Shown: positions 2,628 to 10,781, counted from the first letter of the stretch. The stretch: 32,000 nucleotides of DNA from Candidatus Saccharimonadota bacterium (GCA_042852035.1 BAAFHK010000001.1:240001-272000), one strand, 5' to 3'. The notes: generated from the letters alone by a model not told the origin. Numbers and translations: made by a program.

Positions 2628-2888
2628 TTAGAGTTTTCCGAGCGCGCAGGAAACATAGCTTTTTGCTTTCTTTATAAAATTCTCTGCCTCAGGACTTCCG
2701 ACTTCGGGGTACCCTAGTGAGGAGAGAAGGGAAGTTATATCTTCTTTTTTTGGCCCCTTAGTATACTGCAAGGTTCCAGTTTTTATATCGATATGAACAT
2801 CTTCTGCTCATACCTTTTCGAGTGCTTTGGTGATGGTGTTTGCACACCCGCAACACTTGATGTTCATGATTTGTATCGTCTGTTTCAT
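2628..2888 (-). CDS. copZ: Heavy-metal-associated (HMA) domain protein, CopZ-like chaperone
   Basis: 86 aa: MKQTIQIMNIKCCGCANTITKALEKVGAEDVHIDIKTGTLQY... The metal-binding CxxC is near the N-terminus of a ferredoxin-like HMA fold. It contains one TGA=Gly and sits immediately upstream of csoR. Confidence 0.75.
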
Positions 2889-5924: not shown

Positions 5925-6770
5925 ATGAAACGCAAATTTTCTTCATGGATTATTCTATTTATTGCTGTTGGTATTACTTTTTTTAGTATAGAAGAATTCT
6001 ATCAGACTCATGAGGAAAATACGCTTCCTTCACAAAAATTGGGAGTCTCTTCTGAATTAGTTCATCCTGAACCTCTTCCAAAAAGTGCATGACAACAAGA
6101 TTGTTCCATGAATGGAACATGGTTCCAAGAAAATGAACGTGAGGGATATCAGAGTTGACTTATTGATTGTGATCATGCTGTTTCATATAACCTACTTGAT
6201 GGAACTGTAGAGTCAATAACGGGAGCTTCAACTTTTGAAAAATGATATATTTCAGATGATAACGGGACATATTTTGCATTAAACGTAAAAAGCTGTTGAT
6301 GAGCTCCATGTGAATTTAGAAAGATATCTCCAAAAACCAGATTACAAATTATGAATAATTCATGAGTATTATTTGCGAGTGATGGAATCAATATCTTTTA
6401 TAATGGCATAATTCTGAAGTGAGCTACGAAAATATCAGATTTTATTGTGCTCAATGACACGGTTTGATGAGTGATATTTCGAAATTCTGATACGGTTTGG
6501 TTCGATGGGCAAGCTATAGAATGAGCTGATTCAAGAACATTTAAAATTATTTCAGGAAGTGAAGAGGGGAGCTCTTCGGTATTTGCATCGGATAAAAAGT
6601 ATTGCTATCATCTTTTATCGTATTGAGGTGATTCTGGCGTTATTCCAGAGTGTATTCCAGAGAATTTCCGTACCCTCTGAAAGGAATATTCCACTGATGG
6701 AAAAAGTGTATTCTTGCAAAATAGTAAAATCGAAGGGGCGAACCCACTTACTTTCAGGCTTCCACAATAA
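5925..6770 (+). CDS. DKNYY-repeat family protein, N-terminally membrane-anchored
   Basis: 281 aa with 14 in-frame TGA, all checked in frame. There is an N-terminal TM (WIILFIAVGITFF). Repeated units are of the type DKKYCYHL / GKSVFLQNSKIEGANPLTFRL / VWFDGQAIEGADSRTFKII. The stop is TAA 6768-6770. The standard-code ORF 6559-6774 is in another frame. Confidence 0.8.
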
Positions 6771-6772
6771 AT

Positions 6773-6805
6773 AAAAAATTCCCTCCAAATCGGAGGGAAT
6801 TTTTA
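6773..6805. terminator. Bidirectional intrinsic terminator
   Basis: 10-bp stem aattccctcc / ggagggaatt with a 5-nt loop, flanked by A6 and T5 runs. It lies between convergent genes and overlaps the stop of the MBL gene. Confidence 0.75.
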
Positions 6806-7501
6806 TTCGAGTCCAAGTTTTAGATTTGCTGGAAGAGCGACATCGAGGAATTTTGGTGGAGCGAGATGAAGTGCATTCATTGTTTCAGTGAATGCTTCGA
6901 GCGTGGTCTCAGTTCGAATACGAGTATTGTATTGTTTCTCTTCGCCAATTGTTGACATCATATGCCCTGCATAATCGTGTCCTGGATAGACCTTTGTATC
7001 ATCAGGGAGTGTGTACATTTTGTCTTTGATTGAGTGGTACATCTTCTCGGGAGATCCTTGTTGGAAGTCAGTACGTCCCGTCTTTCGGATGAAGAGCACA
7101 TCCCCAGAAAAAAGCATATCTCCGATAACAAATGAGGTGCATCCATCCGTATGACCTGGAGTTGAGAGGGCTTTTATTTCTATATTCCCGACCGTAAGGA
7201 CTTCTCCATCATGAAGGAGGATATCAGGTTTTGCGACTGCAGCACCTTCTCCAAGGGCAATCTTGGCTCCTGTTTTCTCCCGGAGTACCCCACTTCATGT
7301 GATGTGATCGGCGTGGATATGGGTATCGAGGATATAACTGAGAGTGAGTCCGAGTTCGGTGAGGAGCTTCATATCTCGTTCGACTTGTTCACGGACAGGA
7401 TCAATAATGACCGCTTCTTGGGTCTCGCTATCCGCGACGATGTAAGTGTAAGTCCAGGTCTTCTCATCGAAGAGTTGGCGGAAGATGATAGTGTTGTTCA
7501 T
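6803..7501 (-). CDS. MBL-fold hydrolase, ETHE1/Blh-type persulfide dioxygenase-like
   Basis: 232 aa with the motifs DTHIHADHITG, STPGHTDGC, FSGDVLFIRKTGRTDFQQGS and VYPGHDY. There is one TGA=Gly at 7295-7297. I checked every codon across the 7117-7295 gap. Confidence 0.85.
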
Positions 7502-7504
7502 AAT

Positions 7505-7532
7505 TTGACAGTTTAAATAATATTGTTATATT
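7505..7532 (+). promoter_or_regulatory. Sigma70-like promoter facing the plus strand
   Basis: TTGACA (7505-7510), a 16-nt spacer, then TATATT (7527-7532). It points into the spacer between tauE and the MBL gene, both of which are on the minus strand. Confidence 0.4.
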
Positions 7533-7539
7533 TAATTTA

Positions 7540-7715
7540 TCACATACTCGCGGAGGTTAGATGGTCGAATCGATTCTCATCTGTGCTTTCGCGGCATGGG
7601 TGCTCGAAAGAGTGGTTTTCACGGTGCCCTCGAAGATTCGATGGGCAATCGCAACGGTGTTCATGACCATCATCTGGCATGTGACGCTCTACATGAGGGG
7701 GTAACCCCTTTTTTT
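7540..7715 (+). ncRNA. Candidate ~175-nt sRNA antisense to the tauE-MBL spacer (class unknown)
   Basis: It begins just downstream of the 7505-7532 promoter. It ends in a GGGG-UAA-CCCC hairpin followed by T7 (7697-7715), which acts as a terminator only in the plus orientation. The interior is GC-enriched, with a GCUC-GAAA-GAGU hairpin and a CAUGU...ACAUG hairpin. The alternative reading is a minus-strand His/Cys-rich ORF (see noticed_but_rejected). Confidence 0.35.
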
Positions 7716-7785
7716 GTATTAATTTTTGAAGCAACTTTGCCAGAATCGAGTGGCACACCAGTGTCAGAAAGGTTTCATAGATAAA

Positions 7786-8553
7786 TTAGAAAAAAAGTTC
7801 TTTCGAAAGCATAACGACAGCTGCCGTCATCGTGAAGTAACCAAATCCCTGAGTCAGATGTTCACTCGCGAGATATTTCTGGAGAAAAAGTCCGATAGTG
7901 AGTCCACCGACAGCAATGAATACGAGCGTCGCGAGAAATGCCGTGTCAACCTCAGGAGGAATCCTTCATGCAGCTCCTATAAGCATATTGAGTGAGATAA
8001 TGCTCATGGAGGTCGCGATAGCCTTTTTCCCTTCGAGTCACTCGAAGAACATGAGTGCTGGTACGATGAGGAATCCAACTCCAGCTCAAACGAGCCCAGT
8101 GATAAATCCAACAACTCCTCCCCTGAGTCAGGTGCGTAAAATTTTTCCATGGGTTGAATACGTATTTTTCGCACTACTTAGAGATTTTTTCTTACAGATC
8201 ATCGAGCAGCCAGAGGCAAACATGATGAAGGTGAAGAGGATGAGGAGGTAGGTGGATTTTTCGAGGATCCAGAGATGTTCTGGAAGGGTCGGGAGGATAT
8301 ATCTGCGAGTCAGGACTGTGATGATGATCGAGGGGATGGCGAAATGAAATCCTGTCTTCCATGAGATACGGTTGTGTGCGAGAAATGTCCCGATGACTGA
8401 GGTTGATCCAACGATGATCATGCTATAAAACGTCGCGAGGAGAGGATCAATATGAAATCCATATACGAGCGTAGGAATCGCGAAAATCCCTCCGCCACCT
8501 CCGACGAGTCAGATAATAATCCCGACAAGGATAAAGAGAAGAAGGGAAAACAT
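7786..8553 (-). CDS. TauE/SafE (DUF81) family sulfite/anion exporter
   Basis: 255 aa, polytopic. It starts MFSLLLFILVGIIIGLVGGGGGIFAIPTLVY and has the second-half repeat GGVVGFITGLVGAGVGFLIVPALMFF. The start codon overlaps the trx stop (TAATG at 8551-8555). The stop is TAA 7786-7788. Confidence 0.9.
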
Positions 8554-8864
8554 TAGAGGTATTTTTCGATTAAGGTCTTGAGTTCATCGACATATTTCAC
8601 TCCGACGACCTTCTCGACGGGTTTCCCGTCTTGGAAGAGAATCATTGTCGGGATTGATCTGATTTGGAAGGCATTTGGCACATTGGGTTCATTATCGACA
8701 TTGTGCTTCATGACTCGCATTTTGCCGTCCATCACCTTCGCGAGTTCTTCGAGGATGGGTCCCATCATCTGACAGGGTCCGCACCATGGTGCCCAGAAAT
8801 CGACGAGGACGACACCTTTCTCGATATCACGAGCGAAATTATTATCCGTAGAAGTGTATGTCAT
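8553..8864 (-). CDS. trxA: Thioredoxin
   Basis: 103 aa from the internal ATG at 8864: MTYTSTDNNFARDIEKGVVLVDFWAPWCGPCQMMGPILEE... It has the canonical WCGPC motif. The longer upstream extension in the ORF track is hydrophobic junk that overlaps the promoter. Confidence 0.9.
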   Translation of the reverse strand: MTYTSTDNNFARDIEKGVVLVDFWAPWCGPCQMMGPILEELAKVMDGKMRVMKHNVDNEPNVPNAFQIRSIPTMILFQDGKPVEKVVGVKYVDELKTLIEKYL

Positions 8865-8961: not shown

Positions 8962-8989
8962 AAAAAAATCCACTAAGATTTGGATTTTT
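8962..8989 (-). terminator. Intrinsic terminator of the ATPase-Toprim gene
   Basis: 9-bp stem aaaaatcca / tggattttt with an 8-nt loop that overlaps the TAG stop. A T run follows on the minus strand. Confidence 0.7.
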
Positions 8990-10781
8990 CAGGAGGATTA
9001 CATATGAGTTTTATTTTGTCGAAAAGAGGACTAAAGTTTTTAAAGTATTCTATACCAAGAGTATCAATAATGATTCTACTAAAATGAGTTTTATCTCATT
9101 TAAATGTAATGATTTCTCATCATGGTGAGCATACTTTATTGTAGTGCAAATTATCAAAATCATCATTAATTCAATAAAACATCAGTTCAATAGGGAATAT
9201 TGTTTTGGATCAGAAATGTTGTCCAGAAGTCATATCAAAAAGTTGTCTGTTGATTTTTTGGGACTTATTTATTGGTAATAATAGAGCATAAAATCATGCA
9301 TCCTTTGCTTTATTTGATAAGCAAGTTTCAGGATTGGTATCGTGAGTTATGAAGTCAAGTCAGTTCCACTGATTATATCACTCTTCATCAAAATCAAATA
9401 AACCAATGACACAACTATTTTGAAAACAATTTGCTTTTTCGAGTGAGTATTTAACATCTTTTGCATTCTGTCATTTTGTTGGTTTTGGAATATAAAACGG
9501 CATCTTGACTCAAGGGTAAAGTTTACTCCAAGATTTTTCAAGTATTTCTTTATCAGTAAATCATTCAACAAATAATAATGGTTTTTCTTTATTGCTTAGT
9601 ATTTCCAATGTTTTATTATTCTCTTGTGTTAGTTCTCGTATTCTAATTTCCTGATTTCAAATTTTATCAAAAAATTCCTTATTGGCTATTCACAGTTCTT
9701 TATATTGTGTCTTTTGTACAGGAAGTATTCTTGGTTCATATCACTTTCGAAATACTTCATAGTAATTTGTTCATTCAGGGGCTAATGATATTGTAGTTGG
9801 TGAGTGAGTTACAACTATTACCATAATTCAATTATCTACAAAATATTGATTCAATACCTTGTAAAACATTTCAGTCAAAGATGGATTAAATGTCGCATCA
9901 AATTCATCTAGTAATAACAGCTTTATGTTATTTTTATCACGAGAATTGAGTGTTGAAAATATTAATGAAGTAATGACCTTTTCTCAATCAGATAAATCTG
10001 TTACTTCCATTCATTTTTTTTCATCAATAGTCCCATTGATAATTGGGTATATCCTTGGTTGTTCGATAATTCATGTAATTGATGTGTAGTTATCTTTAAA
10101 TCTATAGTCTATTTTAAGAAGTTTAAATAATTCATTAAGTTTCTTCCACGGGGGGAATCATAATTCATTTTGCAAGTCTGAGTCGCTTATAAGGACTCCT
10201 TGATCATATTTTTCCAATTTTAATTTAGTAAATTTATTTGCATATATAAGAAATGAATCTGCTACTATATTTGAAAAAATATCATCAGATTCCCAGATAA
10301 ACTCATCATCAATAGCTCATATTATCTCTTCTCTTTGGAGCAATCCTCCCATAAATCTACTCTCTCAAAATTTTTGAGTGAGTATCTCCTTTGCTTTTTT
10401 TGAAGATTTTTGGAAACTTTTTAATATCTGATGATTTTCATTAAGAAGGACTCAGTTTGTGTAGTGGCTCCAAACACTATTTTTATGATTTATGAAATTT
10501 TGTGGTTCCGCATTTCAGATATTGTTTATTTGCTGTATATTACTTTGAAGTGTTCGAAATTGTATATTTTTATAATTTATCGGTATGCCATCAATGTCTA
10601 TGCTTGTGGCAATATTTTTATTTGGGTCTTCGGGATATTGTCACTTAATTATTTGCATTAATTGTGATTTTCCACTTCCATTTACTCAAGAAATAATTAT
10701 TAAATTTCACTCTAAGCTTATCTCAAATCAACTTGGAAAGGATTTGTATTCTTCAAATAGTCTAATATTTAAAACTCCCAT
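8973..10781 (-). CDS. Fused ABC-type (AAA15/21-like) ATPase + Toprim/DUF4435-like nuclease; OLD-family or fused PARIS (AriA-AriB)-like defence candidate
   Basis: A 602-aa single frame of 1809 nt with many TGA=Gly. Motifs: Walker A IISGVNGSGKSQL, ABC signature-like LSDGEK, Walker B KLLLLDEFDATFNP, and H-loop VVTHSP. The C-terminal Toprim motifs are PLLFVEGFTDKEIL and GLFDFDEEG. It is the most AT-rich coding stretch in the window. Confidence 0.8.

What the first reader, a model, noticed from the sequence alone, without database searches (positions are those of the whole stretch)
7505..7758. Plus-strand promoter + terminator unit inside the 285-nt spacer of the minus-strand trx-tauE-MBL operon
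The spacer between tauE (which ends at 7786) and the MBL gene (which starts at 7501) is unusually long and GC-enriched. On the plus strand it has TTGACA-16-TATATT. About 175 nt later it has a GGGG-UAA-CCCC hairpin followed by T7.

This reads as a complete small transcription unit antisense to the operon mRNA. That would be a cis-antisense sRNA over a junction in a stress operon.

The competing reading is a minus-strand GTG-initiated 73-aa His/Cys-rich ORF (7537-7758) with the terminator-like hairpin inside it. I cannot resolve the two from sequence alone.
Basis: seen in the sequence. Interest (0 to 1): 0.5.

Follow-up and report, generated by a model that had tools for sequence, protein, structure and literature searches.

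The report
Antisense small membrane-protein gene in operon
The promoter and terminator in this spacer are real, but they frame a conserved, unannotated gene for a 47-residue two-helix hydrophobic peptide, not a non-coding RNA, and the gene lies antisense between sulfur-stress genes of an uncultured bacterium that reads TGA as glycine.

Summary
The plus strand has TTGACA-16-TATATT at 7505-7532 and a GAGGGG/CCCCTT hairpin with T7 at 7695-7715. Its TAA stop codon is the terminator loop.

The window uses genetic code 25 (TGA = Gly), as in Gracilibacteria. I found the same unit in five further lineages, always head-to-head with the MBL (sulfur-dioxygenase-like) gene. The -35 box, the GGAGG-NNAG-ATG spacing, the 47/48-codon length and the stop-in-terminator layout are all conserved.

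dN/dS in this frame is 0.14-0.17. It is about 1 in the other five frames, including the minus-strand His/Cys ORF. A 5' hairpin that pairs the SD and AUG with codons 6-13 is kept in six lineages, with compensatory changes. AlphaFold2 predicts a helical hairpin. No Pfam, NCBIfam, PADLOC or Rfam family matches.

So the unit is a small-protein gene, not an sRNA and not the minus-strand ORF. Its function is unproven. I favour a type-I-toxin-like peptide silenced by mRNA folding and by operon read-through RNA (about 0.35-0.4). An accessory membrane subunit of the sulfur module is about as likely (about 0.3-0.35). Interest is moderate.

The parts
7505..7532 (+). Sigma-70-type promoter of the small gene. 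It consists of -35 TTGACA (7505-7510), a 16-nt spacer and -10 TATATT (7527-7532) with a TG extended -10. The predicted transcription start is near 7539. The -35 box lies 3 nt from the MBL start codon on the other strand.
   Evidence: 11/12 match. TTGACAG is invariant, and TAnnnT sits at 16-nt spacing, in all six lineages.
7541..7600 (+). 5' mRNA hairpin. The 5' UTR, the SD (GGAGG) and the AUG pair with codons 6-13 (CUC AUC UGU GCU UUC GCG GCA UGG).
   Evidence: It is in the MFE fold of the window and of L082, L090 and L091. RNAalifold finds a 20-pair consensus. 94.9% of cells are paired against 44-62% in slid controls, and 4 pairs have changes on both sides.
7552..7556 (+). Shine-Dalgarno GGAGG, 4 nt (TTAG) upstream of the ATG.
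   Evidence: Read directly. GG(A/G)GG-NNAG-ATG is conserved in six lineages. Most other genes in the window have no SD.
7561..7704 (+). Small protein gene of 47 codons plus TAA: MVESILICAFAAWVLERVVFTVPSKIRWAIATVFMTIIWHVTLYMRG. It is a predicted two-helix hydrophobic hairpin with a conserved loop, F-x-x-P-S-(K/N)-I-R-W.
   Evidence: ORF list. Homologues P0001 and P0002 and tblastn hits in L090, L091, L094 and L092/93. dN/dS 0.14-0.17. AlphaFold2 gives helix 2-21, a turn and helix 24-46 at pLDDT 74. GRAVY is 0.83-1.18.
7695..7715 (+). Intrinsic terminator. The stem is GAGGGG/CCCCTT, the loop GTAA holds the first three bases of... rather, overlaps the TAA stop codon (7702-7704), and a T7 run follows. 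The last two codons (AGG GGG) form the 5' arm of the stem.
   Evidence: The same stop-in-loop layout is found in L082, L090, L091 and L094. L094 has GGGGC-TAA-GCCCC, which is a paired change.
7540..7758 (-). I judge it to be a non-coding antisense shadow of the real gene.
   Evidence: Listed. pN/pS in this codon-aligned antisense frame is 0.8-1.8. Its composition and start codon are not conserved.
7719..7778 (-). Candidate 19-codon mini-ORF starting 7 nt after the TauE stop: MKPFGHWCATRFWQSCFKN, with codon 5 = TGA (Gly in code 25). It travels with TauE, not with the small gene.
   Evidence: Homologous mini-ORFs occur in L003 (MKPLGHSCATIWWPQ) and L087 (MKPLGYWCATTWWPK). They show synonymous changes at the K, L, H, A and T codons.
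6803..7501 (-). MBL-fold (sulfur/persulfide-dioxygenase-like) gene, 232 aa under code 25. It is divergent from the small gene and is followed by a strong minus-strand terminator at 6804-6774.
   Evidence: Pfam Lactamase_B 1.5e-20. Some homologues are named 'sulfur dioxygenase' by JGI. Terminator.
7786..8553 (-). TauE/SafE-family membrane protein, 255 aa under code 25. It is convergent with the small gene. Its ATG overlaps the trx stop (TAATG).
   Evidence: Pfam TauE 6.6e-30. The block 7721-8557 (TauE plus mini-ORF) is absent from L090 and L091.
8553..8864 (-). Thioredoxin gene, 103 aa. In L090, L091 and L094 it is the direct convergent neighbour of the small gene.
   Evidence: Pfam Thioredoxin 2e-28; blastn synteny.

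Best explanation
Core claim (the confidence figure refers to this). The plus-strand unit 7505-7715 is a self-contained, conserved protein-coding gene for a 47-residue, two-helix hydrophobic (membrane) peptide. It is not a non-coding sRNA and it is not the minus-strand His/Cys ORF.

Shown by the data:
- A near-consensus promoter whose -35 box is invariant across six lineages.
- A GGAGG SD at fixed spacing, in a genome where most genes have none.
- A 47/48-codon ORF under purifying selection.
- A stop codon inside the terminator loop.

Supported by prediction and covariation: the first ~60 nt of the mRNA fold into a hairpin that buries the SD and the AUG against codons 6-13. Translation is therefore off by default and needs unfolding or processing.

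Inferred from geometry:
- The unit lies antisense between trx/TauE and MBL.
- No minus-strand terminator occurs before the one after MBL.
- The -35 box is 3 nt from the MBL start codon.
- So any trx-to-MBL read-through RNA is a perfect antisense to the small mRNA, and the two transcription directions should interfere with each other.

Functional reading I favour (about 0.35-0.4, inferred only). This is a type-I-toxin-like module. It would encode a membrane-active peptide made from a strongly transcribed but translationally locked mRNA. The host operon's own read-through transcript would serve as the antisense partner, rather than a dedicated antitoxin sRNA.
For: Genetic code 25. Reading TGA as sense restores HADHITGSG in MBL and GGGGG in TauE, and roughly triples the summed length of long ORFs.

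Promoter, SD, ORF and terminator are all present in the window.

Homologues:
- P0001, 98% identity.
- P0002, 54% identity over residues 1-35, E = 3.3e-4 against 1.84 billion proteins.
- Further copies found by tblastn in L090, L091, L094 and L092/93.
- All are head-to-head with the MBL gene on code-25 contigs.

Conserved architecture: CAT, 2-3 nt, TTGACAG, then TAnnnT at 16-nt spacing, ~20 nt, GG(A/G)GG-NNAG-ATG, 47/48 codons, and a Gly codon plus TAA inside a G/C hairpin with T6-8.

Coding signal:
- 9 of the 19 identical residues between the window and L082 use different codons, including CGA/AGA.
- Nei-Gojobori dN/dS is 0.14-0.17 for the three closer pairs, against 0.8-3.7 in four of the other five frames; one antisense frame gave 0.35 for a single pair and 0.69-1.08 for the rest.

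Hairpin:
- 94.9% of cells paired, against 44-62% in slid controls.
- 4 pairs changed on both sides.
- Covariation score reached by 1 of 500 shuffles.
- L094 keeps the pairing to the SD even though the encoded residues differ.

Other support:
- Sense mRNAs fold with z = -2.5 to -4.25 in all five lineages.
- AlphaFold2 predicts a helix-turn-helix hairpin at pLDDT 74, and GRAVY is about +1.
- Most genes in the window lack an SD.
- Between trx and MBL the scan found no convincing minus-strand terminator, only a weak terminator-like hit inside TauE (7910-7892). A strong one lies after MBL at 6804-6774.
- Distribution is patchy. Carriers sit in one MBL clade (83-92% aa identity) with the non-carrier L088 nested inside it, and the L089, L003 and L087 sites are empty.
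Against: - There is no RNA or protein expression data of any kind. The promoter, transcription start, terminator and hairpin are predictions.
- Only six lineages are known, one of them partial. The hairpin structure was derived from the same sequences it was scored on, and half of it lies in coding sequence, which limits free covariation.
- dS is saturated for the distant pairs, where dN/dS rises to 0.4-0.6.
- AlphaFold2 used a 3-sequence alignment.

Against the toxin-like reading specifically:
- No conserved minus-strand promoter for a dedicated antisense RNA lies inside the unit.
- The gene keeps strict synteny with MBL while the other neighbour changes.
- The conserved PS(K/N)IRW loop, and a Cys8 present in 5 of 6 lineages, suggest a specific partner rather than generic membrane damage.
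- Most described type I toxins have one transmembrane helix, not two (my own knowledge).
- A weak, position-conserved minus-strand -10 at alignment column ~19 could give MBL its own near-leaderless promoter. In that case read-through antisense RNA may be minor.
Confidence: 0.8

Rival explanations
1. The peptide is a benign accessory or regulatory small membrane protein of the sulfur (persulfide dioxygenase / TauE / thioredoxin) module. It might act as an anchor, chaperone or modulator. It would be co-regulated with MBL from an overlapping divergent promoter region, with the 5' hairpin simply tuning its translation.
For: It lies next to the MBL gene in all six lineages, while the convergent neighbour varies between trx, TauE plus mini-ORF, and an unrelated AT-rich flank. 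The loop motif and Cys8 (5 of 6 lineages) are conserved. Purifying selection is clear. A possible MBL promoter overlaps the small gene's promoter. PDO/TauE/rhodanese clusters are established sulfide-stress operons (PMC7315123 and PMC5480029, found).
Against: Relatives with about 70-87% identical MBL lack it (L088, L085, L087, L002, L003), as does L089 (partial MBL sequence), so MBL does not need it. No related protein occurs in any of the other MBL loci fetched. No known family matches. A consensus promoter and a strong SD combined with a sequestering hairpin is an unusual set-up for a stoichiometric partner.
Confidence: 0.32
2. One reading: the unit makes a non-coding cis-antisense sRNA that regulates the operon mRNA, and the ORF is incidental.
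For: The promoter and terminator are conserved. The RNA is highly structured, z = -2.5 to -4.25. The geometry is antisense to the trx/TauE-to-MBL path.
Against: The ORF has a conserved SD, start codon, length and frame. dN/dS is 0.14-0.17, and synonymous changes occur at 9 of the 19 identical residues. Amino-acid similarity is detectable by HMMER across 1.84 billion proteins. No Rfam family matches. A dual-function mRNA that both codes and acts as antisense is not excluded and is part of my best explanation.
Confidence: 0.05
3. One reading: a minus-strand GTG-initiated 72/73-aa His/Cys-rich protein (7537/7540-7758).
For: The frame is open in the window and also in the other lineages.
Against: pN/pS in this frame is 0.8-1.8. 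There is no conserved start codon. His content drops from 8 residues in the window to 2-4 in the other lineages. The frame is open because the sense ORF has no TTA or CTA codons. It would also contain the terminator hairpin and an A7 run.
Confidence: 0.01
4. The small ORF is a leader peptide whose translation controls termination. A ribosome reaching the stop codon in the terminator loop would melt the stem. RNA polymerase would then read on, antisense into TauE/trx. The peptide itself would have no role.
For: The stop codon lies in the terminator loop and the last two codons form the 5' arm of the stem, in every lineage. SD sequestration would make this step conditional.
Against: Purifying selection acts along the whole peptide, and the hydrophobic two-helix design is conserved. 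Leader peptides are usually constrained at only a few codons (my own knowledge). At 47 codons it is long for a leader.
Confidence: 0.07

Closest known systems
Type I toxin-antitoxin toxins with translationally locked mRNAs (H. pylori AapA1/IsoA1, PMC5416894 and PMC6733600; E. coli ZorO/OrzO, PMC5397157; Hok/Sok from my own knowledge)
   Same: Small (<60 aa) hydrophobic peptide. Own promoter and intrinsic terminator. Highly structured mRNA in which the SD is sequestered. Located where a fully complementary RNA can be made. Narrow and patchy taxonomic distribution. No detectable protein family.
   Different: No dedicated antitoxin sRNA gene was found. The only candidate antisense is the operon's read-through RNA. 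The peptide has two helices with a conserved loop rather than one transmembrane helix. It keeps fixed synteny with one metabolic gene. Toxicity is untested.
GhoT (type V toxin, 57 aa, two transmembrane helices; from my own knowledge)
   Same: Similar size and a predicted two-helix membrane hairpin.
   Different: No sequence similarity was found, and no GhoS-like RNase gene lies adjacent. The comparison is one of topology only.
Stress-induced bacterial small membrane proteins (for example AcrZ, MgtS and CydX classes; from my own knowledge)
   Same: A hydrophobic protein under 50 aa, missed by annotation and encoded next to the system it might modulate.
   Different: Those are usually single-helix and co-directional or independently placed. 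None matches by sequence. Here the gene is antisense-embedded and has an SD-sequestering leader.
YgaP-like transmembrane domain / DUF2892 (PF11127), a two-helix small membrane protein often encoded in rhodanese and sulfur-dioxygenase clusters (from my own knowledge)
   Same: A two-helix small membrane protein in a sulfur-detoxification neighbourhood.
   Different: hmmscan against Pfam at E <= 10 gave no PF11127 hit. The length (47 against about 60-66 aa) and the motifs differ.
Cis-antisense RNAs and 'excludon'-type overlapping transcription units (from my own knowledge)
   Same: A transcription unit on the opposite strand inside an operon's path, with expected mutual interference.
   Different: Here the antisense transcript is primarily an mRNA for a conserved peptide.

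Membership tests
Type I toxin-antitoxin system | Toxin is a small (<60 aa) hydrophobic, membrane-directed peptide | tested here: met
   47/48 aa, GRAVY 0.83-1.18; AlphaFold2 two-helix hairpin.
Type I toxin-antitoxin system | Toxin mRNA folds so that the SD and start codon are sequestered | tested here: met
   Predicted hairpin conserved in six lineages, 94.9% paired, 4 pairs changed on both sides. This is prediction only, with no probing data.
Type I toxin-antitoxin system | An antisense RNA antitoxin, usually with its own promoter, pairs with the toxin mRNA | tested here: inconclusive
   No conserved minus-strand promoter for a separate sRNA lies inside the unit. Read-through from trx/TauE would give a perfect antisense, because the scan found no convincing minus-strand terminator before 6804-6774, only a weak hit inside TauE. 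No RNA data exist.
Type I toxin-antitoxin system | Overexpressing the peptide arrests growth or kills the cell | not testable with these tools
   Needs expression experiments.
Non-coding cis-antisense sRNA | Own promoter and terminator on the strand opposite a gene or operon | tested here: met
Non-coding cis-antisense sRNA | No conserved translated ORF (substitutions not patterned by codons) | tested here: not met
   dN/dS 0.14-0.17 in the sense frame only. The SD, ATG and ORF length are conserved.
   pN/pS 0.8-1.8. Start codon and His/Cys content are not conserved.
Any Rfam RNA family | Covariance-model score at or above the gathering threshold | tested here: not met
   No hits at gathering threshold for the whole window. 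Only chance-level hits in 7400-7900 (E > 4).
Any Pfam / NCBIfam / PADLOC protein family (including PF11127 YgaP-like TM) | HMM score at or above the curated cut-off | tested here: not met
   Best hits are Vma12 at E = 2.1 and LIC_13387 at E = 0.007, both below cut-off. PADLOC gave none.

The most novel reading that the evidence does not exclude
An operon-embedded type I toxin-like module in a code-25 CPR bacterium. A translationally locked mRNA for a two-helix membrane peptide sits antisense between thioredoxin/TauE and the persulfide-dioxygenase-like gene. The host operon's own read-through transcript would be its antitoxin. Transcribing the sulfur-stress operon would silence the peptide, and shutting the operon off would release it. 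As far as my searches show (one search found no paper), this would be the first type I-like system described in Gracilibacteria or the candidate phyla radiation. It would also be an unusual design with no dedicated antitoxin gene.
Probability: 0.3. Interest if true: 0.65.

Novelty: new member of a known kind. Interest (0 to 1): 0.42.

Why it matters
- It adds a conserved, unannotated small-protein family to a lineage with tiny genomes and a recoded stop codon. Small ORFs are systematically missed there. Only three copies had ever been called, all without a name or Pfam domain on record.
- Sequence conservation alone was enough to decide between sRNA, sense peptide and antisense ORF.
- The conserved combination is a consensus promoter, a rare strong SD, an SD-sequestering hairpin and a stop codon in the terminator, all antisense inside a sulfur-stress gene cluster. 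This gives a concrete, testable case of RNA-level gating in CPR bacteria.
- If the peptide is toxic, it would extend type I-like systems to this group.

Tried and rejected
Searches that gave nothing:
- Rfam at gathering threshold for the whole window, and at permissive E-value for 7400-7900.
- Pfam, NCBIfam and PADLOC with the peptides.
- An exact-sequence look-up of the window peptide.
- Peptide-pattern scans of genome contigs, of metagenome contigs (twice) and of viral contigs. All returned pattern hits, but no relative was confirmed by tblastn.
- A profile search of the 5.8-billion-protein set with the 3-sequence alignment added nothing beyond P0001 and P0002.
- tblastn of the peptide against plasmid and phage records.
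- Foldseek of the AlphaFold2 model against PDB. The best hit was the CrgA transmembrane hairpin at E = 5, which is not significant.
- tblastn of the peptides against all 80 MBL loci from genome contigs, including Bdellovibrio and Pelagibacter, gave no homologue.
- A literature search for type I toxin-antitoxin systems in the candidate phyla radiation returned 0 papers.

Ideas rejected:
- A mobile-element (MITE-like) reading of the unit. I saw no terminal repeats when reading the ends by eye, the position is the same in every carrier, and no second copy occurs in the window.
- A dedicated antisense sRNA promoter inside the unit. The only recurring hit (alignment column 65, TATCAT) is the reverse complement of ATG-ATA/ATT. 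It is absent from the window, L090 and L091.
- A palindromic operator reading of the mini-ORF region. The dyad symmetry seen by eye in the window is not kept in L003 or L087.

Full report
**1. The observation**

- The plus strand has TTGACA (7505-7510), a 16-nt spacer and TATATT (7527-7532). This is 11 of 12 consensus positions with a TG extended -10.
- A hairpin GAGGGG/CCCCTT (7695-7710) has the loop GTAA and is followed by seven T (7709-7715).
- The spacer between the MBL start (7501) and the TauE stop (7786-7788) is 284 nt. It peaks at 53% GC, against 38.5% for the window, although the flanking genes are themselves 45-50% GC.
- The minus-strand GTG ORF 7540-7758 (72 aa) exists.

A single 11/12 promoter match is not rare. 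The window has two, against 1.3 expected from a first-order Markov model. The case therefore rests on conservation.

**2. Genetic code**

Under the standard code the MBL and TauE genes look broken. With only TAA and TAG as stops, the summed length of long ORFs roughly triples. Reading TGA as Gly restores HADHITGSG in the MBL protein and GGGGG / GAGVG in TauE. The window therefore uses code 25, as described for Gracilibacteria and Absconditabacteria (PMC9297842, read). The closest MBL loci in GTDB genomes are 'Candidatus Gracilibacteria' MAGs.

With code 25 the neighbours, all on the minus strand, are as follows.
- Thioredoxin, 8553-8864.
- TauE, 7786-8553. Its ATG overlaps the trx stop.
- An MBL-fold protein, 6803-7501. 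Some homologues are named sulfur dioxygenase (Pfam; names).

Such PDO/TauE clusters are known sulfide-stress operons in other bacteria (PMC7315123 and PMC5480029, found).

**3.

Between the promoter and the terminator lie GGAGG (7552-7556), four bases, and an ATG that opens a 47-codon plus-strand ORF (7561-7704). It encodes MVESILICAFAAWVLERVVFTVPSKIRWAIATVFMTIIWHVTLYMRG. Its TAA stop lies in the terminator loop, and its last two codons form the 5' arm of the stem. Most other genes in the window have no SD, so the GGAGG stands out.

**4. Relatives**

- The peptide hit one 98%-identical protein (P0001) from a 1.1-kb Logan contig of a sister strain. The only change in the ORF there is V19I.
- A full HMMER pass over 1.84 billion representatives added P0002, at 54% identity over residues 1-35 and E = 3.3e-4.
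- P0002 lies on code-25 contigs, again head-to-head with an MBL gene. It has TTGACA-16-TAAAGT, GGAGG-CCAG-ATG, and a GGGGG-TAATA-CCCCC-T8 terminator around its stop codon.
- I then searched with the N-terminal MBL fragment, as a code-11 gene caller would truncate it, and fetched contigs.
- tblastn found the small ORF in L090, L091 and L094, and truncated at a contig end in L092/L093.

That makes six lineages in all. Amino-acid identity to the window is 78, 76, 43 and 34% for the complete ones. Every copy has the same layout:
- the MBL start codon, 2-3 nt, then invariant TTGACAG;
- TAnnnT at 16-nt spacing;
- about 20 nt, then GG(A/G)GG-NNAG-ATG;
- 47 or 48 codons;
- a final Gly codon plus TAA inside a G/C hairpin, followed by 6-8 T.

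L094 has GGGGC-TAA-GCCCC, which is a paired change in the stem.

**5. Coding or not**

- Between the window and L082, 19 of the first 35 residues are identical, and 9 of those 19 use different codons, including CGA/AGA for Arg.
- Nei-Gojobori dN/dS in this frame is 0.14-0.17 for the three closer pairs, with pS of 0.20-0.58.
- The same calculation gives 0.8-3.7 in four of the other five frames. One antisense frame gave 0.35 for a single pair and 0.69-1.08 for the rest.
- That antisense frame is open in all lineages only because the sense ORF has no TTA or CTA codons. It has no conserved start codon, and its His/Cys richness is peculiar to the window.

The plus-strand ORF is therefore the constrained reading.

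**6. The peptide**

- AlphaFold2, restricted to a 3-sequence alignment, predicts helix 2-21, a turn at P23-S24 and helix 24-46, with mean pLDDT 74.
- GRAVY is 0.83-1.18.
- The invariant residues are M1, F20, P23, S24, I26, R27, W28 and the terminal G. In other words, the basic, aromatic loop between two hydrophobic helices is what is conserved.
- Cys8 is present in five of six lineages.
- No Pfam, NCBIfam or PADLOC family matches, and no PDB fold matches significantly.
- There are no hits in plasmids, phages or viral contigs.

**7. The mRNA**

- From the predicted start (about 7539) to the T-run, the sense RNA folds better than dinucleotide shuffles in all five complete lineages, with z from -2.5 to -4.25.
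- In four of five MFE structures the first ~60 nt form one hairpin. In it the 5' UTR, the SD and the AUG pair with codons 6-13.
- RNAalifold on six sequences returns this 20-pair helix.
- Counted on that alignment, 94.9% of cells are standard pairs, against 44-62% when the 3' partners are slid by 1-3 columns. Four pairs change on both sides. Only 1 of 500 shuffles reaches the observed covariation score.
- L094 encodes different residues in this stretch (V-F-V-F-F instead of I-C-A-F-A), yet it keeps complementarity to GGAGG.

Caveats: the structure was derived from these same sequences, there are few of them, and the 3' arm is coding.

**8. Context and history**

- blastn shows that L090 and L091 have trx, then the unit, then MBL, directly adjacent. 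Relative to them the window carries an extra block, 7721-8557 (TauE plus a mini-ORF), between the trx stop and the unit's terminator.
- L094 is also trx | unit | MBL. In L082 the unit's other flank is an unrelated AT-rich region.
- Sites without the unit exist. L089 shares an AT-rich stretch with the L082 flank, including a TTGACT promoter-like box, but has no unit (by-eye comparison; blastn did not report this stretch). L003 and L087 have TauE, the mini-ORF, then MBL with a spacer of about 95 nt.
- In an MBL tree the carriers fall in one clade (83-92% aa identity), with the non-carrier L088 nested inside it. The sister clade (L085, L087, L002, L003) lacks the unit.

The unit is thus lineage-restricted, fixed in position next to MBL, and gained or lost as a discrete block.

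**9. How it most likely works**

Shown: a conserved gene with promoter, SD, ORF and terminator.

Supported by prediction and covariation: translation is locked by the 5' hairpin.

Inferred from geometry:
- On the minus strand the scan found no convincing terminator between trx and the strong one after MBL at 6804-6774. There is only a weak hit inside TauE (7910-7892).
- On that strand the shared hairpin is preceded by A7 and is not followed by a U-run.
- So trx/TauE transcripts probably read through the unit into MBL. That RNA would be perfectly complementary to the small mRNA.
- The small gene's -35 box is 3 nt from the MBL ATG.
- A weak, position-conserved minus-strand -10 inside the small gene's promoter spacer could be a near-leaderless MBL promoter.
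- Either way, the two directions should exclude each other.

A strongly transcribed, translationally locked mRNA for a small hydrophobic peptide, with a complementary RNA available, is the design of type I toxin loci. Examples are AapA1/IsoA1 (PMC5416894, PMC6733600) and ZorO (PMC5397157).

I favour that reading at about 0.35-0.4. Three things argue for the near-equal rival, an accessory membrane subunit of the sulfur module (about 0.3-0.35): the missing dedicated antitoxin promoter, the two-helix design with a conserved loop, and the strict MBL synteny. A leader-peptide or termination-control reading is possible but fits the whole-length purifying selection poorly.

**10. Novelty and verdict**

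- It is wrong on the key point: the product is an mRNA for a conserved peptide, neither an sRNA nor the minus-strand ORF.
- The peptide family is unannotated. Only three copies had been called by any pipeline, and none has a name or Pfam domain on record. It matches no known family. The kind of thing it is, a small hydrophobic protein gene with an SD-sequestering leader, is well known.
- Interest is moderate at 0.42. It would be higher if toxicity and operon-as-antitoxin control were demonstrated.

Noticed in passing
window 1-32000: The whole window uses genetic code 25 (TGA = Gly). Conserved motifs are restored by reading TGA as Gly, for example HADHITGSG in MBL and GGGGG in TauE, and long ORFs appear only when TGA is not a stop. 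The nearest MBL relatives are Candidatus Gracilibacteria MAGs.
   Followed up: yes
window 7719-7778 (-); L003 about 2820-2867 (+); L087 upstream of 3001: A 15-19-codon mini-ORF starts 7 nt after the TauE stop. It reads MKPFGHWCATRFWQSCFKN in the window, MKPLGHSCATIWWPQ in L003 and MKPLGYWCATTWWPK in L087. Codon 5 is always TGA (Gly). Synonymous differences occur at the K, L, H, A and T codons. It travels with TauE, not with the small gene. It could be a micro-protein or a leader for MBL. There are only three independent copies.
   Followed up: partly
window 7721-8557: The TauE gene plus mini-ORF is an 837-nt block present in the window but absent from L090 and L091, where trx directly abuts the small gene's terminator. 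This is an indel of a whole gene inside the cluster.
   Followed up: partly
window 8973-10781 (-): A 602-aa protein has an N-terminal ABC/SMC-type ATPase (AAA_21, AAA_15). Its best PADLOC hit is AriAB (PARIS-like ATPase-Toprim fusion, E = 5.6e-14), with weaker hits to GajA and PtuA. It is a likely anti-phage defence gene immediately upstream of trx.
   Followed up: partly
window, upstream of most long ORFs: Nearly all long genes in the window lack any Shine-Dalgarno motif in the 25 nt before the start codon. This makes the conserved GGAGG of the small gene exceptional, and it hints that short-leader or leaderless initiation is common here.
   Followed up: partly
window 7511-7526 (-) and aligned positions in L082, L090, L094, L093: A weak minus-strand -10-like hexamer (TATTAT, TATTTT, AATAAT or TATATT) sits at the same alignment column inside the small gene's promoter spacer in 5 of 6 lineages. 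It lies about 17 nt before the MBL ATG. It could be a near-leaderless MBL promoter that overlaps the small gene's promoter.
   Followed up: partly
window 5925-6770 (+): A 281-aa protein with a signal or anchor-like N-terminus and a DKNYY-family domain (Pfam 5.8e-13).
   Followed up: no
window about 163 (-): The only other 11/12 sigma-70 consensus match in the window: TTGACT-16-TATAAT.
   Followed up: no
L085 927-3258: In a more distant Gracilibacteria relative the MBL gene ends a same-strand cluster of HTH_5 (ArsR-type) regulator, rhodanese, glutaredoxin, DUF2202, rhodanese and MBL. This resembles BigR/CstR-type sulfide-response operons. No such regulator was noticed in the ORFs next to the cluster in the window (not systematically searched).
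   Followed up: no
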